A DNA stretch of 51,215 nt from Atractiella rhizophila (Eukaryota): assembly GCA_021432655.1 (NCBI GenBank), contig MU271237.1:77132-128346 (forward strand). Direction: 5' to 3'. Below, one piece after another: positions 1 through 51,215 of this stretch (position 1 is its first letter; each line of letters opens with the position of its first letter). A program made the translations under genes and the position numbers. The notes under the pieces were generated by a model that saw only the letters and a program-made list of their open reading frames with translations, did not search any database and was not told where the DNA came from.

Positions 1-1944
1 CTCTCTATATCCGTGCAGGAGTTCTCTGTCCACCGTGAGATGAAAAGACGCTCCCGTGTCGACGTAGAAAGGAGAGTCCGCCGCAACTGATTCTCCAATG
101 AACATTGCAGTCACAACGTCTGCTTGGTCCGTGAGGGAGGGAGGATTTGAGTCGGAATCCGTGTCCTGAGCTCCATCCGTGGTGGGAGGATCGTGAGCGT
201 TACCTGCGTCTTCTCCTTGCTCGAGAGCTTCGAATTCGTTATTCATTTGCTCGTCCCCTGGGGAGGATAGGAGGCCGGGATTGAGCAGGGCCAAATCGAT
301 GAGTGAAGCCAAAGTCCTCCTAAAGGCTCGTTGATGCTCATAGTTCGCTTCCCAGTCGCCTAGTCGTAGTAGAGTCAACTTGAAATGAAGGTCGTCCTCG
401 TATGCATCCACCTTCTGCAACTGCAGGGTCGCTCCATCCCCTTCCATGAGTCGCTCCTTCACATGCACCAGAGTGCGGATCAGCAACGCTCTCTCCGTCC
501 CTTCCACCACAGAGATCGACTCCCTCCTTAGTGCCTCCTCTTCCTCAGACCTACCACCCTCCATCGTCACCATGTAGGCTCCAGAGTCCACAGTTTCGAG
601 CTCGTCATCGTAATAGTTACTCGTGGCGAATAAGGCTTGAGGTTGTACATTCGAGATGACAGCAGAAGCATCCGAGGTGTCGTGGTCTGAGATTCTTGAG
701 ACCAAAGCCCGTCCATCTCGTTGAGGTAGGTTGATTTCGTAGATCTTGAAGACTCTGTTGAGGGATTTTGCCTGTTCCTCATGAGGGTGGGGACATGCTT
801 TTCCAAAGTGGCCGTCTTGTCCACAGTTGAAACATTGTCGGTTCCCCACTCTGAATTTTCCCACTCCAGTCACTCCGTGTGGCCATTTCTCCCAGTTTGG
901 CACTTCTCGAGCATTTGGGGCTAGGACATTGAGCATGGAAAGGGAGCCGCTGCCATATTGTGAATTCGTCCTCCGGGTGCTTTGATTCGCCCTTTGGGAT
1001 GAGGTCGATTCAGGAATGGACATGCGGTTTACAAGAGGTACGTTCGTGGCCTTGGAGTACGAATCACTCATCCTTGGAACCAACGCGACGTTTCCCCTCG
1101 AACTCCCCCTTTCCTCCTCTCTGGTCCTCAGAGCCACCTCTTCCATCGTCAGCCTCTGCACTACTGCCGCAAGATCAGTCTGCGTCGTTCCCGTGGAGGA
1201 CAGCCATCTTCTGGTTTCATCGGTTAGACCATTGATGAGGATAAGGGCGAAGAATTGATCATTTATCTTCACAGCGTCTTGGACTTCGTGAAACTGCCTT
1301 CTTCGTTCGTGGAGCTTCGCGATCCATTGTGACAACGGCAATTCATTTGGATTGTGGGCGAAGTTGAGGAGTTGCTTGAGCAGGTATGCGACGTCGATAA
1401 ATTCTTGTGAACCGTACTTCTCTTTCAGAATCTTCACCGCCTCTACAGGATCTTCCAGCTCCTCGATGAAAACTCTCGCTGTCTCCCCTGCCGCTTATTT
1501 GAGTATCGACATGGCGATCGCTCTCATCTTCTGGAAATTCGTGAGGGCCTTGATGTACTTCTCCATGTCTTCCGCCGTCGTCTCTTTAGTCACATATCCC
1601 TCTCCCTTCGCGCTCGCTGCTTGAATTTCGGTTAAAGTGAGTCCGTCTGCTGATTGCGGATTGACAGGCTCCGTGATGATTCCTTCAAGAAGAAGTCCGA
1701 CTGAGTTCTGCTGAAGGGTGTTTTTGATCCCTCGAAACCATTTCGTCGCGTTCGCCGGGCTGAGAACTGGTATCTCGTCTTTATTGATGGAAATTTTGTT
1801 TCCAATCAACAATTCAGAGCTGAGTTTCGTGGAGGATGAAACGGTGTATGGGACGCTGAAATTCGTAGGTTGAACAAGATCGTCGGTAGGAGTTTCTTGT
1901 CTAGAGACAGCTCGTCTGCCCGTCGTAGGCCCCGTTGCATCCAT
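1..1944 (-). pseudogene. Copia gag-pol with one in-frame TAA at 1495-1497
   Basis: ORF 1495..1944, the zinc knuckle and the protease motif share one frame (codon ends all divisible by 3). The gag-like translation resumes directly after the stop (AAGETARVFIEELEDPVEAVKILKEKYG). Confidence 0.85.
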
Positions 1945-1980
1945 GTCGGTCGTGGATTCGTCTTGGATCGTATAACGAGC

Positions 1981-1992
1981 CTCTCGCTACCA
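1981..1992 (-). promoter_or_regulatory. Primer binding site TGGTAGCGAGAG, probably for initiator tRNA-Met
   Basis: Complementary to a tRNA 3' end CUCUCGCU-A-CCA. The implied U72/A73 fits the A1:U72 pair of eukaryotic initiator tRNA, and the site resembles the Ty1 PBS TGGTAGCGCC. Confidence 0.8.
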
Positions 1993-16461: not shown

Positions 16462-17892
16462 TAAATGAATAGAACTACTCACCTGTTGTATTGTGATGTG
16501 TAAAAAGCTTTCGTAGCTCTTCAGGTGGAGGCGGGGGAACAGGTAGCAGCACCTTGCCATGGAGACAGCACAATGAAAACTTTGGATTCCGTTGTGGGCT
16601 GTTAACGATCTTCTCTTCCATCCAATGAAAGGCTTTGCAATGTCTACAAAGTAATCCCCAAGTAGAGAGGTGGTGTGCCTCAAGATCCATATCAGGTGAG
16701 TAGTTGAATGCAGGATAGTGATGTTGCCTCATTTCGCCTCGCAACAATGGGACTAATGCCCTATCCTCATCACTGTCCGCACCATCAGGATTAGGAGAGG
16801 ATGGGTGTGATCGGGCTTCTTCTTCACTGTACTCCTCAGGGGAGGGTGAACGCTGTCTCTGATGTCATCGAGCTGGTCGTGACGATATAGACAATGAAGA
16901 GCTTCGACAGCGCCGCTGGCACGGAGCCTTAGTTGATCTTGTCTCATGTTGAGGTGGAGTATGTGGAGTAGGATTGAAACGTGCAGGGCATCGCCTCTCT
17001 CTTATAGGTCGACCTTGGTGTAGTGGTGCCTCCTGCTGCAGACATTGAGGCTGTTTGGATCGGCGCTCTCGATTTCTTGTTTGATTTCTCTGAATTGCAC
17101 GTGGCATGAGAGTGTAGCTTGCTGCACATAACAAAATGATATGAGTGAAGAATATATAAGCCAGAGTCCACACACCTATGCTTTTTTTGCTTGATTTGAT
17201 TTGATGCTAACAGGCTGAGGCATACTATGGTAGACTGTTAGGAAGTATATTTGTGGTGAAAGACACTGTTTCACTTGCACGAATGCTTGCTCACTTTCCC
17301 TCATAGTTGGCAAACAACAGTTTTTGGCGCATGACCTGAGAAATCACAGAGAGCCCTGAAGAAATCACGTGCACACAGTTTGCGGACAACAGGATTTGGC
17401 AGTGACAAAATGTGACATGACTGAGACACGAACCCACACCAGCACCAATCAGTCAAGACTCAACTCCCGACCATATGCCAACTACACCATCACACAAACC
17501 CTTTACTTTGTAGGCTTATTTGATTAGGTAAGGAAATTTTTGTCAAGTGCCGAAGTCAGTCACTTGACTCAGTCAAGGAAGACAACTATTTTTTATCCTT
17601 TAAATAAGCTTTATTGTATATGGTTGGGAAGGTGCTGACACGCATATTCTGGTGGTACGCTCAGAATTTTGATGGGGTTGTTGTGGACCAAGAAGTCAAT
17701 TGAGTCAGTAAGGAAAACAATTTTTTTTCGTCTTTCAAATAGGCTTTGTTGTATACGGTTCGAAAGGCGCCAACACGCGTATTCTGATGGTATGCTCAGA
17801 TTACTGGCAGGCTTGTTGTGGGTGGTCAGAGAAGTGCTCAAAAGTACATGCGTGAGTCATGCTAAAAACCCGTCGTGCTTTATATATAAGGA
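16462..17892 (-). mobile_element. Helitron A, 5' fragment
   Basis: 5' terminus A|TCCTTATATATAAAGC at 17892. Helitron N-terminal Zn motif CRHCKAFHWMEEK...FSLCCLHGKV (16475..16747). Colinear with 49079-50355. Breaks inside an intron. Confidence 0.88.
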
Positions 17893-20800: not shown

Positions 20801-22802
20801 TGTTGCTATCCCTTGCATGTTACACTGTTCTCCGAAAATTACGATCCGATAGCCATCCCTAAGCTTGATTATGTCCCTCTGTGACATGTCCCCAATAGAG
20901 GTAGCAAAAACATCTATATACTCCCTGAGAAGGTCACGAGCTGGCTGTTTCCATTCCTTTGTAAGGTTTGAGCCTTCAGGACCATCTCCAACAATGAAGT
21001 GATCCCTCAGCCTTTCCTATCTTTCTGCCATGCTTTCTGTTCCTGTTCCATTTACTCGACATCATGCTGGTGCTGATGCATCATTGGGTCTTGGTTGTGC
21101 ATTGTCTGAGAGTAGGAGGGGTTCGCTTTTCTCAGGTCGATTTGGGAAACCGCTGTTTCATGATTTCTCCAGGGATCTTGTGTTCGCTTATCTTGCCGTT
21201 AAAAAAGCCTGTATCAGTGAGCTTCCATGTTCCCTCAAAGGCTTCTCAAAATATTGTTGCCATATTGCTGGGGGGTGTTCATCCGTCTAATTCCAGACCG
21301 TGCTTGTTGGCCCTGAAGGTTGAACCCTCGAGCTCCGCCATCTTTTCCGTTGAGAATAATAAACCTGCCCAAAACAAGCCAAGATGGCCAAAAAGTGGTC
21401 AGAAAGTTCCCTGAAAATTTAAACATCCACCACCTTCGAAACTTCTCCCTCCTTCCACTACAATCCTCCTATACATTCAGCAGCTGACAGAATCGACGCG
21501 CTGTCAGTAGTCTCATCAATCCATCTCTCTCCATTTCACTCCTCTCCACCACAACCATATTGCCCAAAGCTCCAAAAGGACCATCGACTACTTGTCTCTT
21601 ATGCCATCCAGACTATGCCAGCATGCCCATCTCCTCACCTCTTAGACCTCCATTATCTCCTCAGAAGCAAACTACGCTTGTCAGCAGGATTCTTGCGACT
21701 CCAGCATCAGCAACTCAATTGACGACGACTCTGCACGCCAATCTATTTGGACAGGTGACGGCCCCTCCTGTTTACGAAAACCCACGTCCTACAACAGCGC
21801 CGATACACTCCAAAACAACGGCCCTGGCCCCAACCCCTCCTGTCATACGAACTGGAACTCAGCTTACAAAAAAGCAGATCGCCGCCTCCACGCTTTCACC
21901 CTCCCCCTCGCTTCATCCCCAAAGAAGAGAAGGCGGAGAAACAGTACTGAGGAGAGCATGCCTCTTCCCTTCTCCAGCCTGCCTTCTCACGGCTCTTCGT
22001 CTGCACCCAACACTCCTGATCATGCCGTTACGAGTCCTTCAAGGAAGCGGGTCCGGTTGGAACGGTTGTTTGAGCTTGGGAATTCTTAGACAACAGAGCA
22101 AGCGGTCAGTGCCTACATTGGAGAACACAATGAGAGGGATTGCTAATACAGGAGTAGGGGTCATCTGTTGCATCCCAGCCTCGCTTATTACCGCCAATAA
22201 CGGTATGACACTTGCTTTGCTTATGGAACAATGCACTGAATGATGAGCAACAGATCACTCATGGTCAATCAGCGCTGCCATCCAGCAACACAACGCCAGC
22301 GCCAATCTCCTCTACCCCTACAACCCAGCCACTTGACTTCGTGAATCCTTCTGTTAATGCAGTAATGGTCAGTACCCCTTCAAACCCGCTCCTCCGTCCA
22401 GGCTGTCCCTCCCCATGTACCTGCTGATTCTGGCCTATAGGAGTCGACTCCCAAAATATTCTGTGAACGATGCGGCGCAGATGATGTTTCGGCTTGTCAG
22501 AAAGCTACGCACCAGCGAGGTCAAGCTTGCCAAAAAGCACTACGGATATCTGAAGCGTTGTGGGTGGCATCCGGAATGTTTGGGTGAACAGCGCCAAGAG
22601 CGCATTACCTTGTCAGATGACCGGCTTGGTATGTCACACTCTGTGAGGCAAGGCAAGGTGGAGCTTATCACTTTTGTGATCAGCTTATGGACCTTCGAGA
22701 GAGCGGAGATGATTCAGGAGAGGATGAAGGAGTGCAGAACGCGGAAGGTGAATTTCTTGCAGCTGAAGCTCTTTTTGCGCTTGGAAACTGGCAAGTCAAG
22801 GA

Positions 22803-23327
22803 ATGTTTGCCCGGTCTCCAAACATCATTCCCATGTTTCCAAACGTGTTCCCACGTTTCCCATCTTTGCAAACGTGTTTCGTAGGTCTCCAAACATCGTT
22901 CCCATGTTTCCGATCTTTGCAAACATGTTTCCCAGGTCTCCACACATCATTCCCATGTTTCCACACGTGTTCCCCATGTTTCCCATCTTTGCATACATGT
23001 TTGCCCGGTCTCCAAACATCATTCCCATGTTTCCAAATGTGTTTCCCATCTTTGCATACATGTTTGCCGGTCTCCAAACATCATTCCCATGTTTCCAAAC
23101 GTGTTTCCCATCTTTCCCATCTTTACAAACGTGTTTCCTAGGTCTCCAAACATGATTCCCATGTTTCCCATCTTTGCATACATGTTTGCCCGGTCTCCAA
23201 ACATCATTCCCACGTTTTGAAACGTGTTTCCCATGTTTCCAAACGTGTTTCCCACGTTTCCCATCTTTGCAAACGTGTTTCGTAGGTCTCCCAACATCAT
23301 TCGCATGTTTTGAAACGTGTTTCCCAC
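22803..23327 (-). repeat. Complex minisatellite of 21-bp and 9-bp modules (array 1)
   Basis: Modules on the minus strand: ATGGGAAACACGTTTGGAAAC, ATGGGAATGATGTTTGGAGAC, CTGGGAAACACGTTTGCAAAG and ATGGGAAAC. Confidence 0.95.
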
Positions 23328-23603
23328 CTCCTACCCTCCCTTCTGTCGGGATTCCGAGAGTCCAGAAACAACCGGTGCGACCGCGATGTGTGGTGGAGGT
23401 GTGGGTGTGAGCAAAATTCGAGGTGGCAGTGGAAGTGTGGGTGCGATTGCAAGTGGAGGCAGTGGCAGAGGTGTACATGCGACGAATGGTGCAGGCTCTG
23501 GACTTGGAACGGGTTGACGTTGGGAATGTGAAAGAGGGAAGAGAGCAGTGGATGGCGGTGAAGATGTTTTTGGAGGCAGCAGTGTGTTCAGATTCATGCT
23601 CAA
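22803..23603 (-). pseudogene. Putative Pro-rich plus MGNTFGN-repeat protein, disrupted
   Basis: ORFs 23331..23603 and 23019..23327 are in one frame, separated by a single TAG. The repeat frame shifts near 23060 and is cut off at 22803. Confidence 0.4.
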
Positions 23604-32588: not shown

Positions 32589-33253
32589 ACATATATCTGC
32601 ACCACCTTTACAAAAACACCTTAACTACCCCAAACCTGGACAAGGTCTGCAAAGCGGTAGTGCACGGGGTCTTAAGAAACCCAACGCTCTTAATAGATGA
32701 AGGGCAATCGGATCGATGGGACGGTGATATACTATCTTGATATCGTAATGTTTTTGGAGGAGGAGGAGAGCGGATTTCCTGGGATAGCGAACCAAACACA
32801 GCCAAATCAGAGCTGCGGGAAGACGTCAGTTGGGAGATTGCCAACGATCTGTGTCCAGAGTAGAAAATTGAACGTGGCTTGAAGAAATTATTGTTAGGAA
32901 AAGTCATTTTGAACATCGTGTGATTGAGGCCATTTTATGAGTTGGAGAGCGCGGAAAGTGAGTTCAATTACCTCTCGAAAGGCCAGTATTTTCTTTGATG
33001 TTGTGCAAAAAGGCTGCGTGTAAGAGAGACAGGGTTGTGTGGTTGTCCTTGGACTGCAAAAGACGATTGAGATCTACATTCACTGGCATTGTGGACGTAG
33101 GTGGCAGAGCAGGGATTCCAAATAACCTTCACACGTATCTTGGGTGAAGGATAGACAGATAGACATGCTCTCTGTGAGCTGCATATGAGGAAGCGGAAGC
33201 AATAGCTTGTGACGAGCTTTCGAATGTGATTTCCACTTGACGATCATAAGCCT

Positions 33254-35991
33254 TTGTCTCCTTCTCTTGACCGAGCTACCACACCGACCCTTGAACAGAT
33301 TATGCTTCAAGCCAGGCACCTTCTCAAAGTGACAGAAGATGAAGATCTTCGTCCCTGCGATATTTTCTGTGGTACTTCCACCGGTGAATGGATCGTGCTT
33401 ATGCTCGGCAGGTTGGGAATGATTGCAGCGTACAAAGAGATCATGGAGAACGTATTTTTGAATAACGTCTCAAGCGCCAGCGACGAGTACGCTTACTCGG
33501 CAAAAAAACTCGAAGAAACTTTGACCGCTATCATCCAGCGACAAAACTCTAAGGAGTCTCTTCTGATGAAAGATGCTTCCTTGCAGGACAGATGTAGAAC
33601 GTTCGTGGTTTCTACTTATGAGTCCAACGTTGTCGTTTCCACAGCGATGCGTACATACGATATTCGTGCTGCTGGATCCTCACCATTTATGCCTGCCTCC
33701 GCTTATACGGTCTGGGAAGCTGCAAGGGTGACTGCCGCTGCACCTCCATTCTTCCCTCCTATCAACATAGATTCCACTGAGTACGTTTCGCTAATTCACG
33801 ACAATCCTACCGCAATAGCTGTCCATTCGACAAAGCGCATTTGGGGACACAGCTGTGAGATTGCCTGCCTTGTGTGTCTCGGCTCTGGAATTGCACCTGC
33901 CCTCAAGTTGGACAATGTTGAGCGAGCTTTGAAGGTGATAGCTGAGGATTGCACAAGGGTTGCGAACACCATGAAGATGAAAATGCAGCGATGTCAGATG
34001 GGCCACTGCTACCATCGTTTCTCAGTTGATACGTTCAGAGATTTCAGGTGGGAAGAATGGGAACGAAAGAATGAAGCTGTGGGATGCACGAAGGCTTACA
34101 TGGATGCAATGTGTTATGAAGTGCTCCTTGCTGCTCAATCGCTAGTGAAAGGTATGTTCCTCCTGGTTGCCATTGCATGCGTATGCTCACTTTCTACTTG
34201 TCAGCTTGCAACCATCGTATTGCAGTGTACAAGAAGATTCCATTACCCGCTCCCTGCGCTTGTTACGGAAGAGAAGAGGAAGTTCAGAAAGCGACCGACT
34301 TCATCGCCACCGATCAGAGGCACCTTGCCATTATCGGCTGCGCTGGTAACGGCAAAATCTACGGTCGCACTAGAAGTCTTGCATGCAGATGAAATCAGGA
34401 GAGAATTCACGACTGTGAAAGATGGGAACGAAGAAGATTTTCGTTTTTGGGGGCCGATGTGACACTTTCTCTGATTTCTCCTCGCTCTCCGCCTACCTCT
34501 GCAATGACGTTTTTGGGTTGGCTCCCCAACCTGGAGAAAATGACCTTGCCGCCGTAGCGAGATATTTCCAAGCGCACAAGTGTATCCTCTTCTTGGATAA
34601 TTTCGAGACCCTGCATGCTCGGACATGAATAACCTGCAACCATTCTTCCAATCCTTCCTTCAAGTTTCCAAAAGCTGCCCTTCTGGATCCACTCTTGTTG
34701 TAATACATCAGGGCCATCAGATCGAACGTGTCAATTTGACAAGGGTCAAGAGGTGATGATCCGTCGCTTGAGCAACGATGCTGGGTTAGACTTGTTCAAG
34801 TATATGTACACCGCTGGGAATGAAGCTCGCCTAGATCAAGAGCAACTCGTCCAGATGATTCTCACTAAGCTTGATCATCATGCACTGTCCATTAAGCTCT
34901 TTATTCTTCACGCCAATGCAGAATCAACTGCGCCGCTCGCAGTTTTGGTGCAGGAGTGGGAGGCAAAGAAGACCATCCTTCTGTAGGATGAAGATAGTGA
35001 GGAGACGCACAGTTTTGCAACGTCGATATCTTTTTCCCTCAATTCACCTCTTCTCAGAAAACATGAGGACCTTAGCGCTTTTATCCTTGCTCTCTTATCG
35101 TTGACGCCTGATGGTCTTCTTGTGGATGACATTGAAGCTATCATATGTAGTGATGCTGCTCATCATTCAGAAAAGACTTCCATACTCATCACCTCAATCT
35201 TAGCCGTCAGTCTTGCTGAAATTGCCACAGATGTCCTCATGAAATCACCAAGATTGCGCATGCTCGCGCCAATTCGCGAACACATCAACCGCTTGGTCTT
35301 GCGTCCAGTTCCACCTTTTAAAATCACTGCTTTATCGCTTGAGCCGTTGACTATGGGTCTCATCAATAAAGCTCGTAAAAATGTTCGACGATTCCAAGAT
35401 GGAGCTGACTGGATCGGACTGCGGTCGTTTCGCAACGATTATCCAAACCTTGAATATGTCCTTCTAGCTGCCTTTCAACGCCTGGATGATCGGACAACAC
35501 CATACATCTTCCTAGCAGAAACCTGGAGTTTTCTGTATCATCAAAGCCTTCTCTCCATGGCACTTTTTTAGTCCGCTTTATTCTACACCAGATCCATCTC
35601 TGTTATGTCACTGACCGCTGGATTGACGCTGGCCCTTGGATCAGCATTTCGACTGAAGGGGAGCCTACAACAGGCGCTTATCCGGTTCGAGGAGGCCAAG
35701 GAGTTGTATGTGGTTGTGGAAAATCAGCGCGGACGTGCCCGCTGCATTCGCGGCGAGGAGGAGATCGAGCAGGGTCGCGCGCATAATGAAGAAGCGTTGA
35801 AACAGTTCGAGGAGGCAAAGGAGCTGTATATGATTGTGGAAGATCAGCAGGGCCTTGCCCACTGCATTCGCGGTGTGGGGGAGATCGAGCGTTGTCATGG
35901 GCGTAACGAGGAAGTGTTGAAATGGTTCAAGGAGGCGAAGGAGTTATATATGGTTGTGGAAGATGTGGGAGGTCAACAATATGGGCATTAA
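33254..35991 (+). pseudogene. Fungal NLR-like gene: patatin-like phospholipase + P-loop NTPase (STAND) + TPR
   Basis: Patatin RPCDIFCGTSTG (GxSxG) and AAPPFF. Walker A HLAIIGCAGNGK/STVA is split by a frameshift near 34355. Walker B ILFLDNFET. C-terminal 40-aa TPRs. In-frame TAG at 34984 and 35569. Confidence 0.88.
35686..35970 (+). repeat. Highly similar 120-bp (40-aa) TPR tandem repeats, ~2.4 units
   Basis: TTCRAGGAGGCNAAGGAGYTRTATRTGRTTGTGGAA starts at 35686, 35806 and 35926. Confidence 0.9.
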
Positions 35992-36655
35992 TGCCATTGG
36001 TAACAGCGTGAATTATCCAAATGGCCAAAAGAGCGGTTGGACCAGAGAAGTGCTTGACGTGAGGTTAAGTTAAAGTAGCTCCTCTCCCCTTTAGCGGTAC
36101 TGGATTCAGTGCCTAAACCTCAGGACTGTCCTGGCGCTGGACCTACGATGAGCACTTGGTTTGTGTACGGCCGCGCCAAAGTTGCTGATAAACAGGCCCA
36201 AACATTTCCGCTAACATGCTGTCTTGTACTGAATCAGGTGTTCTCTTCCTCTCAGCAGTGAGACCAATTGCTCAGAAGCTTCGGTTGAGTTCCCTCTTTG
36301 CACTTATGAATCGGCGGTGCAGCCAAGTGTTGGTTCCATGGGATTTGACTGTGCTCGTCATTGAGGGTTGGGGTTCGCTAGTGAATGAAAGGAGATAATT
36401 AGATATTGAAAGAGTTGGACGAATAGAAACTCTCCTTGGGGGCTTTGAGGATCCAATTGGCGAAGGAACTCTCAAAGACATTTAGGACTGTTATCATTAG
36501 GGAAGGCGGTGGGGGCGTTTTGGTCAGAGAAATTCTGCAACCCTCTTAACAATGTCACGATGAGACAAGGCGGCGGTGCTTGGTGGATCAAGAAAGGAGG
36601 GCAGCAGAGTTTCCCAGTCGAAGAGTTGGATGGTGCCGTCTGGAGAAGTGACATT

Positions 36656-39600
36656 TACATATCTGAGAGAGAGGAACAATCATTATAGAGTCAAAGGCAT
36701 TTCCAGAGCATATCAGGGTATTCAATAATGCTTTTTGCCTTTATATCCTTAGGCGTCTGCCAGGTATCAATTCCTGGACATGGTCCCTACTCCTTCAAAA
36801 TTCAGGGAGAGCTGTGCCACCTTATTGGTACTCTTTTACCACAACAAGGGTATGAAACATTTGCACAGGTCTACATTACAGATTCAGCTGTACAGACTGA
36901 ACAAAGAGTTGGCAACACTTCAGTCTCACTGACTCATAGTACGCTTGAAGACCTTCAGACTATGCTCTTCCACATGTCAACCCATATCCCAGGATCTACA
37001 AATTTGCAAAAGAAAGAATGGAACAGGATCCCACTACAACACTACATCTTTGCACAGTCGCCCCACGAGATAGGGACCCAAGACACTACAACATTCCTGT
37101 AGCCAGTGAAGTTGCTGTAGTGATGGTAGGAGACGGTAACAGAGAAGAATATGGAGTGGCCAGAGATATTATCATCCAGCTCAGGGCAACCACAACTGGT
37201 AGCAACTTACAGCGTGTCAATGAGCTCAACCCAAATTATCTTCCACTTCGTTTTCCTCTTCTGTTTCTATATGGGGACCGAGGATGGCATCCGCAGATTC
37301 CGTATCGAGACCTGCCTGCAGATCTTCCTCCTCGCGAGCGAGAGCACTTCAATGATGACGGCATGCAAGTTGGTAATTCTGGGGTTCGACAACGTGTCAG
37401 CCAAATGGAGTTCTATTTTTACATGTTGCATCTACGAAATGATATATTCTCACTCCCTCTCTATGGTGGTCAGCTACTGCAGGAATTGGTAGTCGATGCT
37501 TATGCTCAAATTGAGGCAAATCAACTCCGCTTCTGCAGTTCCATCAGTCTATTCTTTGAGCTGAGGTATATCAGGGTCTTATGGATGCCCTTGCAGAACG
37601 CTATTCTTTAGAAGATATCGGGAGGCAGACTATACTACCATGAGGTTTCACTGGCAGTCCACATTCAATGAATCAGTTGTTCTAGGATGCAATGGGTATA
37701 GTTGGTGCCAAAGGACCTCCAAATATCTTTACAACCTTCACTTGCAACCCACACTGGGCAGAGATCACGGAAGCCCTCCACCCAGGACAAAAACCAGAGG
37801 ATCAACCAGATTTGGTTTCAAGGGTTTTCGACTGAAGGCTCTGGAGTACATCAAGGATTTAGTGGTACGACAGATCTTTGGAAGGGTTATCGGATATGTC
37901 TGGGTCATTGAATTTCAGAAGAGAGGTCTATGACATGTGCACATCCTGAAGATCTTTGGGAGTTGCCAGCAAACCATTATAACTGATTTGAAAACATTAT
38001 GACAAGCTCAAGGACAATCGCGCTCATCTTCTGCAAATAGTTTATGGAATCGCTACACCTTCTGAAGACCAGATCCAAGACTCATGCCTTATTAAGGTAG
38101 AGGATCTGCTACATAGTCTAGGTGAGATACTAGAGGAGTATAGACTGCCATTACCTACCTGGATGTTTGGACGATGGGGAAGAGAGAGACAAGAATAATC
38201 GGAGAAAGAACTGGGTACAGCATTACAGAGCTGAAGCAGCACCTTGATAGGGATCTTTCTCTTATGAATGAGGATCAACGACACACATATGATACAATCA
38301 TTGAAGCCTGCCAGAATGGTACTGGAGGACTCTTCTTTCTTGATGGGCCTGGAGGAACTGGAAAGACTTTTGTTCAGAATCTTATAATGGCAAGAGTAAG
38401 ATCATCCAAGAAGATTGCACTAGCAGTAGCCTCTTCTGGAATTGCTGCTATTCTGCTTGAGGGTGGCTGTACGCTCATACACGATTCAAGATTCCCTCCA
38501 ATGCAGATGCTCAATCAGTTGAGGTATTTCAGCTCAAAGTGATCATGGAAGGCTATATGTTGAGGCAGAAATTATCCTGTGGGATGAAGCCATTATGAGT
38601 GATCAACTATCAGTCAACTATGTGGATCGATTTGGGACAGGATCTTAAAAAGGATTCAAGACCATTTGGAGGAACACTGACGGTTTTCTGTGGTATGATA
38701 CTTCCCTCATAGGAGATGGGATTTAGTGGTATGACAGATCTTTGGAAGGGTTATTGGATATGTCTGGGTCATTGAATTTCAGAAGAAAGGTCTACCACAT
38801 GGCCACATCATGTGGATGGCATCAACGATCGCTTGATTCAGTGGCTCAAATCCATAGGAAATCGGGTATATTATAGTGCAGATCAAATTATAGATGACGA
38901 GGGAGATCTCAGAAATCACTTCTCTGTTGAGTACCTGAATACCCTGGAGATCTCTGGATTCCCTTCACATTGTTTACACCTCAAGATCGATGCACCCATA
39001 ATTCTTCTGCGAAATCTCAATCCATCTGCTGGCCTGTGCAATGGCTCACGCCTCATAGTCACTCAGCTTCTCCGGCGAGTCATTGAAGCAACCATCATTA
39101 CAGGTGCACATAGTGGCGAATCAGTTCTCATTCCTCGAATCAGCATTGACAGTGCAGTATCAAACCAGCTTCCTTTTCAATTCCAGCGCTTTCAATTCCC
39201 TGTGCACTTAGTGTTTGCCTTAACTCTGAATAAAGAGCAAAGACAATCTGTTGGACATGTGGGTTTGTACTTAGAATCTTCTCCTTTGTCTCATGGGCAG
39301 CTTTATGTTGGTCTTTCACAGGTTTCAAATGCAAACAATTTACGAGTATTGGTCAAAACAAAGCAAGGAGAAGAAAACAAGCAAACAGATAATGTAGTTT
39401 ACAAGGAAGTGTTATGAATACTCAATCACTGATCATCTCTCAGCATGTTCCTAACAGTATAGTCAGAGACCACTCGGCTTTCATTGTTTTTTTTTTGAAC
39501 ACAGTAGAGTACATATGGTGAGTCTGTGCTCACTGAAGGCGTGGCCCCATGCAGTGGCTGCCAGAGGCAAGAGCTCCACGCAGTGGCCGCTGGAGGCTGA

Positions 39601-39661
39601 GGTCCAAGGGGCAAAGCCCCTGGCGGGGGGATGCCCGAGAGACAAGCGCCTGACACGCTTG
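36656..39661 (+). mobile_element. Helitron C: Rep-PIF1 helicase pseudogene with 3' end, lacking the 5' part
   Basis: Rep motifs TFTCNPHW and VIEFQKRGL*HVHI. Helicase motifs FFLDGPGGTGKTF, LWDEA, LRNLNPSAGLCNGSRL, SHGQLYVGLS and NVVYKEVL*. Terminal hairpins GGGGC-AAA-GCCCC and ACAAGCG-N7-CGCTTGT, ending CTTG|T. Has internal deletions. Confidence 0.92.
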
Positions 39662-39694
39662 TTGAGGAGAAAAGACATTTTACTGATATGCTTG

Positions 39695-39774
39695 TGCTGG
39701 ATTTAGCCAATTGCACTAAAATGACCAGTCATTCCCAACAGTGCAGATTAACCCTTTATACCCAAGGTTCAACA
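39695..39774 (-). mobile_element. Solo LTR of the 80-bp TRIM family
   Basis: 79/80 identical to the TRIM LTR. 5-bp TSD GCTTG at 39690-39694 and 39775-39779. Confidence 0.95.
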
Positions 39775-40163
39775 GCTTGCACTTTCCTTTTACTACAACT
39801 GTCGACATCTTCGATTCTTACCATTGATGAATCCACAGCTTCACCAAATCATTCCACAGACGAGCGTATATGGCGCACAATCCACGAAGAGATAGGGATG
39901 ATGGGACGATCTTGACCATTACACATCGACTGGAAACCATTATTGACTGTGAGCTTTACTCCTCCCTTTCCAAATGAAGACAGTGATTTTATCTAGAGGT
40001 TAAATTTTAGTTTTATCATTATTGGTGGTTGCCTAATCTACGACCTGCTTGTCGTGGAAGGGCATGCCCGAGGGACGTGGGCAACACTGACACACTTGTT
40101 ATTTCTAAGGATTGATGATAATCCGTCATGTTGTACGCGGGCAAGAGTCACTAAGTACCTTCT

Positions 40164-40770
40164 CTACTCCCAAATGCCTGACTCCACACTACTTCTGTGC
40201 TTCCCTATCATGCTCCTTGCAATCACAATCTCCTCCTCCCTCCACTCACCAAAGAATAAACAAACCTCAAGATGCCAATCTATCCCCATTCCATCAACCT
40301 GATCCCCCTTCTTGATCCCCCTCATACGCCAATCCCCAAAGAACCAGCAGATGAAGTCTGAGAAGTCGAACAAGTCCACCGCACAGTACTTGAGTGTTAT
40401 ATGATATATTCCTGTTGCATTTTTGAGTGTGCCAAAGAACTGGCAAGGAATGAGGTTTGAAGCTTCTTCACCCCCATCGAGGATTAGCTGGGTGAGGGAC
40501 GCTACGTCAAGCAGAGTGGTCAGGATGGAGGTCTTTCCTCTAACAGAGAAGGCGGCAAGCTCGACCATGAGATGCTCCAGAAGGGGTGGCAGAGGGTGCT
40601 CTGAGATGGATGGAGGGAGGGGACACAGAGTAGAGAGAACCAGGGATTCTAAGTTGTGTGGGAGGGAGAGCGATGGGATTGGCGGGAATTTGTAAAGGGT
40701 TAGGCATCTGACGTTGGGACGGAATTGAAGGCCTGTTGAGAATGAAACTGGAGAGTCTCCAACCGTTGGA
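40164..40770 (-). pseudogene. Leucine-rich-repeat-like (F-box/RNI-like C-terminal) gene fragment
   Basis: Periodic LxxLxL pattern: LQRLETLQF, NVRCLTL, NLESLVL, LLEHLMV, SLTQLIL. The annotated ORF start lies inside the TRIM LTR. Confidence 0.45.
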
Positions 40771-40786
40771 GTTCTTTGGAAAAGAC

Positions 40787-41130
40787 TGTTGAGCCTTGGG
40801 TATAAAGGGTTAATCTGCACTGTTGGGAATGACTGGTCATTTTAGTGCAATTGGCTAAATCCAGCATGGTAGCGAGAGCTGACCCTGCATACCCGGGTTC
40901 GAACCCCTGTCTGAGCACTTTAGCCATATTGTGAGAGTGGGGAAAACCACTATGAAAACTGTTGAGTGGGTGCTCTTCCCCACTATAAATGATGGAAGGG
41001 AATGGTTGTGGCAGGGAAAGTGGTTGCAGACAGTACAGATTAGGGAAGGGTGTTGAGCCTTGGGTATAAAGGGTTAATCTGCACTGTTGGGAATGACTGG
41101 TCATTTTAGTGCAATTGGCTAAATCCAGCA
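40787..41130 (+). mobile_element. Complete miniature LTR retrotransposon (TRIM-like), 344 bp
   Basis: Identical 80-bp LTRs at 40787-40866 and 41051-41130 (TGTTG...CAGCA). PBS TGGTAGCGAGAG at 40867-40878. PPT AGGGAAGGG at 41042-41050. 5-bp TSD AAGAC at 40782-40786 and 41131-41135. Non-coding 184-bp interior. Confidence 0.96.
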
Positions 41131-41755
41131 AAGACTTGCTGCACAATCTGTTCGCACGCACGGATGCATTCTTGAACGGTCATTCCCAATCGTCCAAGCA
41201 TGAGGGCAATCCATCCTCCCGTAGAACGGTAGAAGTGCCACAAATGAGATCGAAAACATCGCAGGGTCGAACCTCTTCTCCCTCAGGAACTCCGAGGAGA
41301 TCTCCAATTTGGAGCATGATGACTTGGAGCATGTAAAGTGTGGAAAAGGTACAGATGCCACCGTTGTCGATAGCGAGGATTCGGACGCCTTGGTCGTTCA
41401 TCTTCTTGACATTGCCGGGGCTTGGAAAATCTTGACGGCTTGAACTTGGGAGTGGCTGGGGGATGAGAAAAGTGTTGGAGTAGCAGCTCTGGAGGCAATG
41501 GGCAATGTGGTACGCGATAGGAAGCCAAATTGTTGGCCAAAAATCGTCGGTTTGGCAGTCAGGAAACGGCTGGGTCGAGAGTACAGCTGCAATACTGAAA
41601 GATTTTGACACTCCAATGCCTTCGTTAGACTGTGGAACATGTCGCAAACCGGCGGCGAATGCGTTGTCGTCGTCAGATAAATTCCCAGGGTCTTCATCGT
41701 CGCTGGGATTTAATGAAGAAGGTTTAGGCGTCTTTCTGAAGGCTGAGGTGTCCAT
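41131..41755 (-). pseudogene. N-terminal patatin fragment (second NLR-like copy), interrupted by the TRIM
   Basis: GVRILAIDNGG, RPCDVFDLICGTST, a frameshift, then GWIALMLGRLGM...EQIVQQV. The frame continues as FSKE after removing the TRIM and one TSD. Confidence 0.85.
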
Positions 41756-43247
41756 CGCCTAGAACACAAGATGAAATGAGGACAATTGACCGAGAACTCC
41801 TTGTTGAACGTGAGATACCAAACTGAGGAAATAGGTCAGATCTGGACTAGAGCTGCGAGGAGGGAGAGCATCGAAAGGATAGGTGAAACTGACTCTGAAG
41901 AAGAAACAAGGCAGTAGAGCCCATTCCTATTCAAAGATCCACGCCCATGGAAGAACATTCCTTACGAACGCGAGGACGTAAGGATAAGAAGGGGAGGTCA
42001 ACTTAGGACAACTTGAACCATTTGTCAACTTGCAAGACGGTGGACCGAACGCTGGGAAGAAGAAAGATGTCACGATGAACCAACTGCCTAAGAATGGCAG
42101 TTGTGGATATGCATTTGAGTTTGGATCAATGGAGATATGAAGCCTGCACAACTTGAATATCGAATTGACAAGTACATCTCTCATCTCATCATCGACAGGG
42201 CAAGTGTCAATAAAGACTCACATGCGAGACTTTCTTCGACCGATCGCGTAGTAACAACCAACTGCTGGCACTTGACACTCAACGCGCAAAATCCAGGAAC
42301 AATTTGCTCTCCCGCACAGCATGAGAGAGATGCAGAGAGGGTTCGTCGGTTGATGTAGACAAGGCTCGATTCTCGAAAACCCTCGTCCACCTGATGTTCA
42401 ATATTGATGGCGATCTTGACCTGATTCGTAACACGGATCCGGGGCCATCATCCCAGCAGCGAATTCCAACCCTCTTGCCCTTGCTCCACCCTCCCTGTCG
42501 CTCCTGTCATCATGCAAGCTAGGCTGCATCGAATTCTTCTTTGTAGCTGATTTGCCCCAGCACTGGAGATCAAAATCTAGCAATGGAACTGTCAGAGAAA
42601 CTATACAGAAAGCATGCGATGGCTCACCAATGATCTCATCATCCATCCAAGACTTGAAATTCTCATCATTGCTTTGACTTTTTCCACTATCAAGCTTTTG
42701 AGTGTGTTTTCTAGAAGATCGACGAGGCGAACCTCCTTCATCCTCAGATGCATTGAGGGCAACAGGGTGCAAAGCAGGAGTGATGTCTTGCCTTTGTGGG
42801 TCTCTTAACTCTTCATGAGGGACCTTTGAAGCATGGCTCCCCTCTTTTATCTGCGAGCTTTTCATGCTTGCCTGTAACTCTTTTGTATGTCAGGCATTGA
42901 GATTACTGACATTCCAGTTTGGTTGTACTCCTTCAGAGCGACTCTTCCTGGTGATTGCTTTTCACTTAAATTTCGTGAAGTTCTTATCGCTTCTCAGGCA
43001 CTCTTTTCCACACCTGTAGTTCGAAAAAGGACTCACGTGCCCACCGTATTTGCGCTGCGAAGGATATTTAGAAGGTGACTTGGTTCATATTGCATGGCCA
43101 GCCATCTCACGGCCGCGCCGCTTGTTTCGGTTCCAAGTTCCCAGTCCCTGTCGTCCCTGGGTTACTTTTAGGCAATTTGGTCACTTGTTAGCCTAAATCA
43201 GGCTTTTCGGTCATTTTTGGTTGCTCTACCTCTGCTCTCAAACCCTA

Positions 43248-46566: not shown

Positions 46567-49071
46567 ATACTGCACTGTCAATGCTGATTCGAGGAATGAG
46601 AACTGATTCGCCACTATGTGCACCTGTAATGATGGTTGCTTCAATGACTCGCCGGAGAAGCTGAGTGACTATGAGGCGTGAGCCATTGCACAGGCCAGCA
46701 GATGGATTGAGATTTCGCAGAAGAATTATGGGTGCATCGATCTTGAGGTGTAAACAATGTGAAGGGAATCCAGAGATCTCCAGGGTATTCAGGTACTCAA
46801 CAGAGAAGTGATTTCTGAGATCTCCCTCGTCATCTATAATTTGATCTGCACTATAATATACCCGATTTCCTATGGATTTGAGCCACTGAATCAAGCGATC
46901 GTTGATGCCATCCACATGATGTGGCCATGTGGTAGACCTTTCTTCTGAAATTCAATGACCCAGACATATCCAATAACCCTTCCAAAGATCTGTCATACCA
47001 CTAAATCCCATCTCCTATGAGGGAAGTATCATACCACAGAAAACCGTCAGTGTTCCTCCAAATGGTCTTGAATCCTTTTTAAGATCCTGTCCCAAATCGA
47101 TCCACATAGTTGACTGATAGTTGATCACTCATAATGGCTTCATCCCACAGGATAATTTCTGCCTCAACATATAGCCTTCCATGATCACTTTGAGCTGAAA
47201 TACCTCAACTGATTGAGCATCTGCATTGGAGGGAATCTTGAATCGTGTATGAGCGTACAGCCACCCTCAAGCAGAATAGCAGCAATTCCAGAAGAGGCTA
47301 CTGCTAGTGCAATCTTCTTGGATGATCTTACTCTTGCCATTATAAGATTCTGAACAAAAGTCTTTCCAGTTCCTCCAGGCCCATCAAGAAAGAAGAGTCC
47401 TCCAGTACCATTCTGGCAGGCTTCAATGATTGTATCATATGTGTGTCGTTGATCCTCATTCATAAGAGAAAGATCCCTATCAAGGTGCTGCTTCAGCTCT
47501 GTAATGCTGTACCCAGTTCTTTCTCCGATTATTCTTGTCTCTCTCTTCCCCATCGTCCAAACATCCAGGTAGGTAATGGCAGTCTATACTCCTCTAGTAT
47601 CTCACCTAGACTATGTAGCAGATCCTCTACCTTAATAAGGCATGAGTCTTGGATCTGGTCTTCAGAAGGTGTAGCGATTCCATAAACTATTTGCAGAAGA
47701 TGAGCGCGATTGTCCTTGAGCTTGTCATAATGTTTTCAAATCAGTTATAATGGTTTGCTGGCAACTCCCAAAGATCTTCAGGATGTGCACATGTCATAGA
47801 CCTCTCTTCTGAAATTCAATGACCCAGACATATCCGATAACCCTTCCAAAGATCTGTCGTACCACTAAATCCTTGATGTACTCCAGAGCCTTCAGTCGAA
47901 AACCCTTGAAACCAAATCTGGTTGATCCTCTGGTTTTTGTCCTGGGTGGAGGGCTTCCGTGATCTCTGCCCAGTGTGGGTTGCAAGTGAAGGTTGTAAAG
48001 ATATTTGGAGGTCCTTTGGCACCAACTATACCCATTGCATCCTAGAACAACTGATTCATTGAATGTGGACTGCCAGTGAAACCTCATGGTAGTATAGTCT
48101 GCCTCCCGATATCTTCTAAAGAATAGCGTTCTGCAAGGGCATCCATAAGACCCTGATATACCTCAGCTCAAAGAATAGACTGATGGAACTGCAGAAGCGG
48201 AGTTGATTTGCCTCAATTTGAGCATAAGCATCGACTACCAATTCCTGCAGTAGCTGACCACCATAGAGAGGGAGTGAGAATATATCATTTCGTAGATGCA
48301 ACATGTAAAAATAGAACTCCATTTGGCTGACACGTTGTCGAACCCCAGAATTACCAACTTGCATGCCGTCATCATTGAAGTGCTCTCGCTCGCGAGGAGG
48401 AAGATCTGCAGGCAGGTCTCGATACGGAATCTGCGGATGCCATCCTCGGTCCCCATATAGAAACAGAAGAGGAAAACGAAGTGGAAGATAATTTGGGTTG
48501 AGCTCATTGACACGCTGTAAGTTGCTACCAGTTGTGGTTGCCCTGAGCTGGATGATAATATCTCTGGCCACTCCATATTCTTCTCTGTTACCGTCTCCTA
48601 CCATCACTACAGCAACTTCACTGGCTACAGGAATGTTGTAGTGTCTTGGGTCCCTATCTCGTGGGGCGACTGTGCAAAGATGTAGTGTTGTAGTGGGATC
48701 CTGTTCCATTCTTTCTTTTGCAAATTTGTAGATCCTGGGATATGGGTTGACATGTGGAAGAGCATAGTCTGAAGGTCTTCAAGCGTACTATGAGTCAGTG
48801 AGACTGAAGTGTTGCCAACTCTTTGTTCAGTCTGTACAGCTGAATCTGTAATGTAGACCTGTGCAAATGTTTCATACCCTTGTTGTGGTAAAAGAGTACC
48901 AATAAGGTGGCACAGCTCTCCCTGAATTTTGAAGGAGTAGGGACCATGTCCAGGAATTGATACCTGGCAGACGCCTAAGGATATAAAGGCAAAAAGCATT
49001 ATTGAATACCCTGATATGCTCTGGAAATGCCTTTGACTCTATAATGATTGTTCCTCTCTCTCAGATATGTA
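46567..49071 (-). repeat. Right arm of a 2,505-bp inverted duplication (left arm 36656-39160)
   Basis: Paired coordinates sum to 85727 at both ends and for each mirrored ORF checked, implying no net indels. Mirrored ORF translations are identical within the arms. Confidence 0.97.
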
Positions 49072-49637
49072 TATGCAATAAATTGAATAGAAGTACTTAC
49101 CTGTTGTATTGTGATGTGTAAAAAGCTTTCATAGCTCTTCAGGTGGAGGCAGAGGAACAGGTAGCAGCACCTTGCCATGGAGACAGCACAATGCAAACTT
49201 TGGATTTCGTTGTGGGCTATTACCGATCTTCTCTTCCATCCCATGAAAGGTTTTGCAATGTGTACAAAGTAATCCCCAAGTAGAGAAGTGGTGTGCCTCA
49301 AGATCCATATCAGGTGAGTAATTGAATGCAGGATAGTGATGTTGCCTTATTTCGCCTTGCAACAACGGGACTAATGCCCTATCCTCATCACTGTCCACAC
49401 TATCAGGATCAAGAGAGGATGGGTGTGATCGGGCTTCTTCTTCACTGTACTCCTCAGGGGAGGTGAACGCTGTCTATGTCATCAAGCTGGTCGTGACGAT
49501 ATAGACAGTGAAGAGCTTTGACGGTGCCACTGACGCTGACGTGGAGCCCTAATTGATCTTGTGTCATGTTGAGGTGGAGTAGGATTAAAACGTGCAGGGT
49601 GTCGCCTCTCTCTTACAGGTCGACCTTGGTGTAGTGA

Positions 49638-49717
49638 TGTTGAACCTTGGGTATAAAGGGTTAATCTGCACTGTTGGGAATGACTGGTCATTTTAGTGCA
49701 ATTGGCTAAATCCAGCA
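49638..49717 (+). mobile_element. Solo LTR of the 80-bp TRIM family, inserted in Helitron E
   Basis: 5-bp TSD AGTGA at 49633-49637 and 49718-49722. The paralogous empty site is visible in Helitron A at about 17011-17035 (GACCTTGGTGTAGTGGTGCCTCC). Confidence 0.96.
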
Positions 49718-50701
49718 AGTGATGCCTCCTGCTGCAGACATTGAGGCCGTTTGGATCGGTGCTCTCGATTTCCTGTTTGATTTCTCTGAATTGCACGTGG
49801 CATGCGAGTGTAGCTTGCTGTACATAACAAAATGATATGAGTGAAGAATATATAAGCCACAGTCCACACACCTATGCTTTTTTTGCTTGATTTGATTTGA
49901 TGCTAACGGGCTCAGGGATACTATGGTAGAGTGTTAGGAAGCATACTTGTGGTGAAAGAAACCGTTTCACTTGCATGAATGCTTGCTCACTTTCCCTCAT
50001 AGTTGGCAAACAACAGTTTTTGCCGCACGACCTGAGAAATCTCAGAAAGCCCTAAAATTTGCTTTCATGCAGTTTGCACACAACAGGATTTGGCAGTGAC
50101 AAGATGTGACATAACTGAGAATCGAACCCGCACCAAGACCAATCCGCCAAGACTCAACTACCAACCATACTCCAACTACACTATCGCGCAAACTTTTTAC
50201 CTTGCTGACTTTTTTGAGTAGGTAAGGAAATTTTGGTCAAAGTGTCGAAGTCAGTCACTTGACTCAGTCATGGAAGACAACTATTTTTTCTCCCTTAAAT
50301 AAGCTTTATTGTCTACGGTTGGAAAGGTGCTGACACGCGTATTCTGGTGGTATGCGATGGGGTTGCTGTGACAACTTGCTGCGAGTGGAAGTACTGCAAG
50401 CTGATGAACGTCGAATTTTCCTTGCCACTTATTCCCAGAGAAGCTGGATGAAGACTGCGCTCCGTATGCTCAGGGACAAAGGGATAACTGTCGGCAATCC
50501 GTGTGAGTGGGTGGAGGAACAGTGGCTAGGGGAAGAAGTCATGAGGCTGCTGGAGGATAAATTGGGCCGCACTTGATCTGCAATCTCCGCCGACCAAATG
50601 CAACTTGCGGATCTATTTTTGTGGATTTCAGCGTTGATATGGGATCTGGGAAGCAAGCTTGCGATTTTTATCCGAATCAAATGTGACTATGAACGTTTAC
50701 A

Positions 50702-51215
50702 ACGTATGCAAAGATGGGAAAGATGGGAAACACGTTTGGAAACATTGGAATGATGTTTGGAGACCGGGCAAACACGTATGCAAAGATGGGAAACACGTTT
50801 GGAAACATGGGAACGATGTTTGGAGACCTACGAAACATGTTCGGAAAGATGGGAAACATGGGAATGATGTTTGGAGACCTGGGAAACACGTTTGCAAAGA
50901 TGGGAAACAGGGGAAACGCGTGTGGAAACGTGGGAAGGATGTTTGGAGACCTACGAAACATGTTTGCAAAGGTGGGAAACATGGGAAACACGTGTGGAAA
51001 CATGGGAACGATGTTTGGAGAGAAACACATGTGGAAGCATGGGAATCATGGGAAACACGTGTGGAAACTTGGGGATGATGTGTGGAGACCTACGAAACAT
51101 GTTTCCAAAGATGGGAAACTTGGGAAACATGTTTGGAGACCTACGAAACACGTTTGCAAAGATGGGAAACATGGGAACGATGTTTGGAGACCTGGGAAAC
51201 ACGTTTGCAAAGATG
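50702..51215 (+). repeat. Complex minisatellite of 21-bp and 9-bp modules (array 2), runs off the window
   Basis: Same modules as 22803-23327, in the opposite orientation. Confidence 0.95.

What the first reader, a model, noticed from the sequence alone, without database searches (positions are those of the whole stretch)
40843..40917. Pol III-like split promoter or tRNA-like module assembled across the TRIM LTR and interior
Seen: A-box-like TAGTGCAATTGG in the LTR (40843-40854) and a perfect 12-bp palindrome GGGTTCGAACCC (40895-40906) matching the B-box/T-loop consensus GGTTCGANNCC about 40 bp downstream. TATAAA lies at 40800-40806. The LTR also has two adjacent near-palindromes (AATGAC-TG-GTCATT; TTTAG-TGCAATTGG-CTAAA). 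Established: plant Cassandra TRIMs use 5S-derived Pol III promoters. Inference: this TRIM may use a tRNA-type Pol III promoter that exists only in full-length copies, since solo LTRs lack the B-box. Alternatively the palindrome is an RNA dimerisation or packaging signal.
Basis: partly seen in the sequence, partly recalled or inferred. Interest (0 to 1): 0.7.

Follow-up and report, generated by a model that had tools for sequence, protein, structure and literature searches.

The report
Fungal mini-retrotransposon with split tRNA promoter
A 344-base, gene-less jumping element in a fungus carries the two halves of a tRNA-gene promoter, one in its terminal repeat and one just inside it, so probably only complete copies are read by RNA polymerase III; this is a variant of a known element class, and no RNA data yet show that it works this way.

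Summary
Observation confirmed. 40787-41130 is a young fungal TRIM: identical 80-bp LTRs, 5-bp target duplication, 15-nt tRNAiMet primer site, 8 full copies found. The LTR A box (40843) and interior B box (40896) score like host tRNA genes: 30.1 bits, tRNA median 29.1, 0 of 5000 shuffles, 59 control junctions at most 10.3. Spacing (53) and TATA position (-42) match host tRNA genes, and no T5 terminator interrupts the element. Diverged LTRs keep an A box. An unrelated, probably self-primed TRIM in this genome has the same split layout. The interior box resembles the host tRNA-Ile(UAU) 3' end (23/26). Best reading (0.6): a tRNA-type Pol III promoter complete only at the 5' LTR of full copies, a split variant of Helenus/TRIMp3. 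It is not a Helenus member, as Helenus has both boxes in the LTR. Against: no start-site data; copies too young to test conservation; the segment also pairs with PPT/U3 in the predicted RNA and resembles a Copia-leader-derived motif in rust Helenus. A dimer palindrome is disfavoured. The scan noted this layout before on other DNA (e1-7574941, e1-7785099, e1-7785450).

The parts
40782..40786 (+). 5-bp target site duplication, left copy (AAGAC)
40787..40866 (+). 5' LTR, 80 bp, TG...CA, identical to the 3' LTR
40801..40806 (+). TATAAA, 42 bp before the first T of the A box; inferred TBP/TFIIIB site
   Evidence: TATA-like words start at -50..-36 in 12 of 49 host tRNA upstream regions, against 4 and 2 in the neighbouring windows
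40823..40831 (+). predicted zone of the transcription start (inferred, not observed)
   Evidence: tRNA geometry (PMC5356446); TATA -30 rule (recalled); a Copia/TRIM chimera holds TRIM sequence from 40836 on
40828..40841 (+). LTR near-palindrome in the predicted R region (a perfect palindrome in subfamily F2); lets the two RNA ends pair in the predicted fold
40840..40843 (+). the only T-run of 4 in the LTR, overlapping the A box; weaker than host tRNA terminators
   Evidence: 47 of 50 tRNA calls have T5 or longer within 30 nt
40843..40854 (+). A box, followed by a D-loop-like CTA
   Evidence: 12.0 bits, above 7 of 28 leave-one-out tRNA scores; diverged LTRs carry other valid A boxes
40867..40881 (+). 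primer binding site for tRNAiMet, lying in the A-B spacer
40880..40906 (+). leader segment that is an imperfect inverted repeat of 41048-41076 (end of PPT and start of the 3' LTR)
40895..40920 (+). B box (40896-40906) inside a T-arm/3'-end look-alike, 23 of 26 identical to host tRNA-Ile(UAU)
   Evidence: 18.1 bits, above 22 of 28 tRNA scores
41042..41050 (+). polypurine tract
41051..41130 (+). 3' LTR: TATA, T4 (41104-41107) and A box (41107-41118), with no B box behind it
41131..41135 (+). target site duplication, right copy
39695..39774 (-). solo LTR of the family, 5-bp duplication, A box only
49638..49717 (+). solo LTR of the family, 5-bp duplication; a related empty site lies near 17020

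Best explanation
A non-autonomous, Copia-dependent TRIM is transcribed by Pol III from a tRNA-type promoter that straddles the LTR boundary. Shown in sequence: TATA and A box in the LTR, LTR end and primer site in the spacer where a tRNA gene has its anticodon arm and intron, B box 53 bp after the A box. Inferred: TFIIIC binds both boxes and places TFIIIB on the TATA; Pol III starts at about 40823-40831 and runs through the T5-free element into the 3' LTR, where it stops weakly at T4 or reads on. The uncapped RNA folds into a rod, is co-packaged by Copia particles, primed by tRNAiMet and integrated with a 5-bp duplication. The 3' LTR and solo LTRs lack a B box, so only the 5' LTR of full copies should fire. 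Likely origin (inferred): a captured tRNA gene or a Helenus/SINE-like module, perhaps of Ile(UAU) type, whose middle was replaced by the LTR end and primer site.
For: Pair score 30.1 bits against a host tRNA leave-one-out median of 29.1; 0 of 5000 shuffles; 59 other LTR-PBS junctions at most 10.3; spacing 53 within the host range 42-73; TATA at -42 in the host tRNA zone. 50 genome-wide A+B hits against 2 for the control, mostly tRNA genes, a SINE and two TRIMs. Subfamilies F2/F3 (about 82% identical) changed the box letters, yet 6 of 9 F2 LTRs and the F3 LTR meet the A-box consensus; the two LTRs scored gave 14.5 and 13.2 bits. A second TRIM (114-bp LTR, 523 bp) has the same layout (32.1 bits, 0 of 5000). 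Its best local matches to this element fall on the boxes; its interior B box is unpaired in the fold; its putative self-primer starts 18 nt before the A box, the usual Pol III start. No T5 in 10 of 10 copies. The only BLAST match of the interior among non-family loci fetched is the tRNA-Ile(UAU) 3' end, E 0.004. Two chimeras with different Copia families point to co-packaging.
Against: No start site, cap or Pol III occupancy data (contigs only). Conservation among the 10 copies is uninformative. No full-length F2 copy was found, so a B box there is untested; 3 of 9 F2 LTRs break the A-box consensus. The A box of this family is in the lower part of the host range (above 7 of 28). The A-box ends can also form a short U5 hairpin. 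The B-box segment is an inverted repeat of PPT/U3, and the exact complement of that junction already fits the B consensus in a copy with the common LTR letter, which makes a B-like motif less improbable than shuffles suggest. The tRNA-Ile match beyond the box is modest (11 of 15, p about 0.01). No host-grade terminator: the first T5 lies 42 to more than 1500 nt beyond the 3' LTR. A similar motif occurs in Copia-leader-derived interiors of rust Helenus.
Confidence: 0.6

Rival explanations
1. The boxes are a tRNA-, Helenus- or Copia-leader-derived relic now kept for RNA structure. The segment behind the primer site pairs with PPT/U3 to close a rod that aids packaging or strand transfer, while Pol II transcribes from the LTR TATA.
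For: Rod-like fold, z -4.38; B box paired with PPT/U3 at P of 0.95 or more in 10 of 10 copies. The interior of Helenus-3_PSt, in a group whose interior the paper derives from the Copia-9_PGr leader, matches 40895-40921 at 23 of 27 letters (counted by eye; derivation stated for LTR-1_PTrit and relatives). A TATA box also suits Pol II.
Against: The interior departs from the exact U3 complement towards the tRNA consensus. It does not explain the A box at tRNA spacing, its variants in F2/F3, or the second TRIM, whose interior B box is unpaired. The segment was not found in 60 of 134 and 30 of 38 primer-site leaders read in this genome, nor outside the family by pattern. Of 11 variable paired sites 5 keep and 6 break pairing.
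Confidence: 0.27
2. The 12-bp palindrome is a dimer-initiation (kissing) signal and the A-box likeness is incidental.
For: Self-duplex of -22.5 kcal/mol; 18 of 60 other leaders carry a perfect palindrome of 8 nt or more within 100 nt of the primer site.
Against: In the predicted transcript every palindrome base is paired elsewhere (unpaired probability at most 0.19; local hairpin 0.0 in 10 of 10 copies). The same 12-mer is simply the T arm of tRNA-Leu(UAA) and tRNA-Ile(UAU). One copy has lost the outer pair while the B box stays.
Confidence: 0.07
3. The motif is an extension of the primer site that pairs with the T arm of tRNAiMet.
For: It lies 14 nt behind the primer site; partial pairing of -10.8 kcal/mol is possible.
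Against: It fits the B consensus fully but the iMet T loop only with mismatches, and it must compete with the tRNA's own T hairpin (-6.3) and with the U3 pairing. No other iMet-primed leader has it 8-38 nt behind the primer site: 10 hits, all this family.
Confidence: 0.03
4. Chance resemblance with no function.
For: A boxes are degenerate; the finding was picked from very many windows.
Against: 0 of 5000 shuffles; 2 control hits genome-wide; the layout recurs in a second family.
Confidence: 0.03

Closest known systems
Helenus (TRIMp3), Kojima 2024, PMC10886601 (main text parts 1-5 of 6 read; supplement parts 1 and 10 of 11 and three motif or name searches)
   Same: TRIM under 1 kb with tRNA-type A and B boxes; fungal; 5-bp duplication; Copia-type iMet primer site (some fungal Helenus use the iMet 3' end); many solo LTRs; Pol III use inferred, not validated.
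   Different: Helenus has the whole tRNA-like module, both boxes, in each LTR. The fungal LTRs in the table rows seen are 106-284 bp; here the LTR is 80 bp and holds only TATA and A box, and the B box lies behind the primer site. There is no cloverleaf and no T-run behind the box. Solo and 3' LTRs should be silent.
Cassandra and Ajax (5S-derived TRIMp3; PMC10886601, and passages of PMC7215508)
   Same: TRIM with a Pol III promoter; short predicted R region (18 bp reported for Cassandra; about 13-21 nt here if T4 ends the RNA); rod-like predicted RNA.
   Different: 5S type (A, IE, C boxes) inside the LTR; no Rfam 5S match here.
Second TRIM of this genome
   Same: A box behind a T4 in the LTR, B box in the interior behind the primer site, 5-bp duplications, no other T-run of 4 or more.
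   Different: No overall sequence similarity; primer site complementary to its own LTR rather than to tRNA; an extra B box at the LTR start.
Host tRNA genes and yeast SNR6 (passages of PMC11346459 and PMC5356446)
   Same: TATA + A box + B box with flexible spacing; SNR6 is a precedent for boxes separated by unrelated elements.
   Different: These are genes for stable RNAs with T5 or longer terminators, not retroelements.

Membership tests
TRIM | Under 1 kb, two LTRs, no coding capacity | tested here: met
   344 bp, 80-bp identical LTRs, 184-bp interior; the one stop-to-stop frame of 150 aa or more across it lies on the minus strand and was not searched as such; the neighbouring frame overlapping the 5' LTR has no Pfam match
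TRIM | Primer binding site and polypurine tract at the interior ends | tested here: met
   15-nt match to tRNAiMet; purine tract 41042-41050
TRIM | Dispersed copies with target duplications | tested here: met
   8 full copies, 6 of 8 with a perfect 5-bp duplication
Helenus | tRNA-derived sequence with box A and box B inside the LTR | tested here: not met
   Best B score wholly within an LTR is -1.4 bits against 18.1 in the interior; no tRNA call
Helenus | Box A of tRNA type in the LTR | tested here: met
   12.0 bits; 14.5 and 13.2 in the F2 and F3 LTRs scored
Helenus | Fungal members: 5-bp duplication and Copia-type primer site | tested here: met
   chimeras with Copia elements
TRIMp3 (TRIM with a Pol III promoter) | Small-RNA-derived promoter motifs in working order and spacing | tested here: met
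TRIMp3 (TRIM with a Pol III promoter) | Motifs better conserved than the surrounding sequence | tested here: inconclusive
   Copies too young; A-box consensus kept in 6 of 9 F2 LTRs and in F3; no diverged full-length copy found
TRIMp3 (TRIM with a Pol III promoter) | Transcription by RNA polymerase III | not testable with these tools
   Only assembled contigs were offered; they show no start, strand or cap
Cassandra / Ajax | 5S rRNA-derived sequence in the LTR | tested here: not met
   No 5S match up to E 10 in 39500-42500
tRNA-derived SINE | tRNA head at the 5' end, A-rich tail, long duplication, no LTRs | tested here: not met
   The element has LTRs, primer site and purine tract; the genome's own SINE is a different sequence

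The most novel reading that the evidence does not exclude
Fungal TRIMs have more than once arrived at a split Pol III promoter, with TATA and A box in the LTR and the B box behind the primer site, under both tRNA-primed and self-primed replication. The layout would switch on only the 5' LTR of intact copies, leave 3' and solo LTRs silent, allow LTRs as short as 80 bp, and let one segment serve as TFIIIC site in DNA and as end-joining stem in RNA. That would be a class of TRIMp3 that screens for tRNA-like LTRs miss.
Probability: 0.45. Interest if true: 0.7.

Novelty: new variant of a known kind. Interest (0 to 1): 0.5.

Why it matters
Pol III-driven LTR elements are described only with the whole promoter in each LTR, and only Cassandra is validated (PMC10886601). 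A split promoter would explain how an LTR element makes its 5' LTR active and its identical 3' LTR silent without Pol II signals. It gives a clean test within one genome: full copies against solo LTRs of the same sequence. It also means that searches for tRNA-like LTRs undercount such elements. If the rival holds, it is an ordinary small TRIM with a tRNA-like structural motif.

Tried and rejected
ARAGORN on the window and Rfam on 39500-42500: no tRNA or 5S match. Conservation across copies: the B box is invariant in 10 of 10, but with 17 of 185 columns variable this happens about one time in three by chance (my arithmetic). Structure conservation: 5 of 11 variable paired sites keep pairing, so no signal. 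Metagenome scan for primer site + B box: 49 loci, none with LTR-like direct repeats; mostly bacterial tRNAs and chance hits. RNA evidence: 9 runs listed, all with shares of 0.28 or less; 4 laid, all contigs. One contig per run lay on the element at depth 2.7-10; this shows related copies in other samples but not transcription, start or strand. Full-length copies of subfamily F2: none found. A Copia leader as source of the B-box segment in this genome: not found in 60 of 134 sites of one primer type and 30 of 38 of the other; 4 of the 60 had a loose B-like word within 300 nt, none aligned well. Look-up of earlier notes by sequence: nothing. Literature: searches listed no paper whose title or abstract opening describes a split LTR/interior promoter; 9 of 11 parts of the Helenus supplement were only motif-searched, so a split family there is not excluded.

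Full report
Observation. They lie in a 344-bp element, 40787-41130, with identical 80-bp LTRs, a 5-bp duplication, a purine tract and a primer site. The primer site matches 15 nt of the 3' end of a tRNAiMet gene of this genome. The 51-Mb assembly gave 41 matches, a lower bound: 8 full copies at 97-100%, 2 without the 5' LTR, 22 close solo or partial LTRs and 9 diverged or partial ones. Six of 8 full copies have perfect duplications and 5 of 8 have identical LTRs, so the family is young. The host looks like a fungus from genome size, tRNA introns and transposon content (inference).

Are the boxes more than chance? A strict A+B pattern has 50 hits in the genome against 2 for the reversed control; 8 are this TRIM, 3 a second TRIM, 7 a SINE, and most of the rest tRNA genes. 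I built weight matrices from 49 of 50 ARAGORN calls in 49 fetched loci (28 distinct box pairs). The A box scores 12.0 bits (above 7 of 28 leave-one-out scores), the B box 18.1 (above 22 of 28), and the pair 30.1 (tRNA median 29.1). No shuffle of 5000 reached it (maximum 24.8), and 59 other LTR-primer-site junctions reached at most 10.3. The A-to-B distance is 53 (host 42-73, median 49). TATAAA starts 42 bp before the A box; TATA-like words start at -50..-36 in 12 of 49 host tRNA upstream regions, against 4 and 2 in the neighbouring windows. Upstream TATA elements at tRNA genes are known in fission yeast, plants and some budding-yeast genes (PMC11346459, passages). The element has no T5 in 10 of 10 copies, while 47 of 50 host tRNA calls have T5 or longer within 30 nt. 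Fission yeast needs five T and budding yeast six (PMC5356446, passages). Pol III could therefore cross the element, but it has no host-grade stop signal either.

Comparative evidence. Close copies cannot test conservation. Diverged LTR subfamilies can, in part. F2 (9 solo LTRs) and F3 (one duplicated site) differ at several letters of the box; 6 of 9 F2 LTRs and F3 still meet the consensus, two F2 LTRs with the same flanks break one position, and one is decayed. No full-length F2 copy was found, so their B box is untested. A second TRIM family (523 bp, 114-bp LTR, 29 matches) shares no overall similarity; its best local matches to this element fall on the two boxes. It too has an A box behind the LTR's only T4 and a B box in the interior (32.1 bits, 0 of 5000 shuffles). 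Its primer site pairs with a 10-nt stretch of its own LTR that starts 18 nt before the A box. If it is self-primed as in Tf1 (mechanism recalled; lead from note e1-7574942), the RNA starts there, which is the usual Pol III position: A box at +8 and start 10-12 nt before the mature end (PMC5356446). This is the strongest independent support, and it rests on an inferred priming mode.

Origin. The only BLAST match of the interior among the non-family loci fetched is the 3' end of the host tRNA-Ile(UAU) gene, 23 of 26, E 0.004; beyond the box the match is 11 of 15, p about 0.01. The palindrome is that gene's T arm and also that of tRNA-Leu(UAA). Against a simple tRNA origin, the interior of Helenus-3_PSt matches 40895-40921 at 23 of 27 letters (by eye). 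The paper derives the interior of the related LTR-1_PTrit from the leader of Copia-9_PGr, so a B-like hairpin may exist in Copia leaders. I found no such leader here in 60 of 134 and 30 of 38 primer sites read or by pattern.

RNA level. The predicted transcript folds into a rod (z -4.38). The segment 40880-40906 is an imperfect inverted repeat of the purine tract end and LTR start (41048-41076), and the B box pairs there with probability 0.95 or more in 10 of 10 copies. This disfavours an exposed dimer palindrome, though the self-duplex would be stable and 18 of 60 other leaders carry shorter palindromes. It also supplies the main rival: the segment may be kept for end-to-end pairing, and the exact complement of that junction already fits the B consensus in a typical copy. 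The two roles, DNA site and RNA stem, do not exclude each other.

Helper. The primer site is shared with many Copia-like elements (134 sites against 25 control), one of them in the window at 1992 on the minus strand. Two chimeras suggest co-packaging. In L073 a Copia 5' LTR ends in the last 31 nt of the TRIM LTR, with the junction at LTR positions 45-50, near the predicted start (one case, fits either polymerase). In L031/L032 an F3 LTR and primer site are joined to an inverted Copia LTR within one 5-bp duplication.

Mechanism. Shown: element anatomy, box quality, spacing, TATA position, absence of T5, recurrence in a second family. Inferred: TFIIIC binding, start at about 40823-40831, weak stop at the 3' T4 or read-through, silence of 3' and solo LTRs, Copia packaging. 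RNA runs gave contigs only and no start, strand or cap.

Comparison. It works like Helenus/TRIMp3 (PMC10886601; main text parts 1-5 of 6; supplement list, three searches and parts 1 and 10 of 11). It fails the defining feature of both boxes in the LTR, so it is not filed as Helenus. Cassandra is 5S-type (PMC7215508, passages). Two later papers mention Helenus only in passing (PMC12859917 and PMC13570524, passages). Searches listed no description of a split layout; the library lacks most subscription journals, and unread supplement parts may bear on this. The scan's own notes report the layout in the second family and in two other fungi, and called this family ordinary; these are unchecked leads except where tested above.

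Verdict. A real feature and a new variant of a known kind; working split Pol III promoter 0.6, structural relic with Pol II 0.27. Interest 0.5.

Noticed in passing
L139-L141, L242-L253 (G000 C38, C362, C996 and others): Second TRIM, 523 bp, with the same split A/B layout, a self-complementary primer site and an extra B box at the LTR start.
   Followed up: partly
L133-L138 (e.g. L135, G000:C295:48951): tRNA-derived SINE of about 500 bp with A and B boxes, an A-rich tail and a duplication of about 19 bp; 7 copies met the strict pattern.
   Followed up: partly
L073 (G000:C336, near 30420, minus strand): Copia element whose 5' LTR ends in the last 31 nt of the TRIM LTR, a likely template-switch product.
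   Followed up: partly
L031:1147-1460 and L032: F3 TRIM LTR plus primer site fused to an inverted Copia LTR within one 5-bp duplication.
   Followed up: partly
window 36652-39160 and 46567-49075: 2509-nt, 100% inverted repeat holding a Pif1 helicase fragment; it encloses the TRIM, patatin-like DNA and a DDE_1 transposase. A recent inverted duplication or an assembly effect.
   Followed up: no
window 1-1992, minus strand: Copia-like element with the same iMet primer site, followed by a gag-like frame broken by a stop (no Pfam match for the first frame).
   Followed up: no
window 40164-41758, minus strand: The TRIM sits in what looks like a copy of a multi-copy patatin-like gene (recognised by eye; no Pfam match for these two frames, but PF01734 at 33230-34459; many contigs on the flanks).
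   Followed up: no
window 22800-23330 and 50700-51215: Minisatellite of 21- and 30-nt units in opposite orientations.
   Followed up: no
window 41048-41059, minus strand: In a copy with the common LTR letter the purine tract/LTR junction reads as a B-box consensus on the minus strand; the window copy has lost it by one change present in both LTRs.
   Followed up: partly
L146 (G000:C417:1764-1840): The tRNA-Ile(UAU) copy read has a mismatch in its acceptor stem; two further copies were not read.
   Followed up: no
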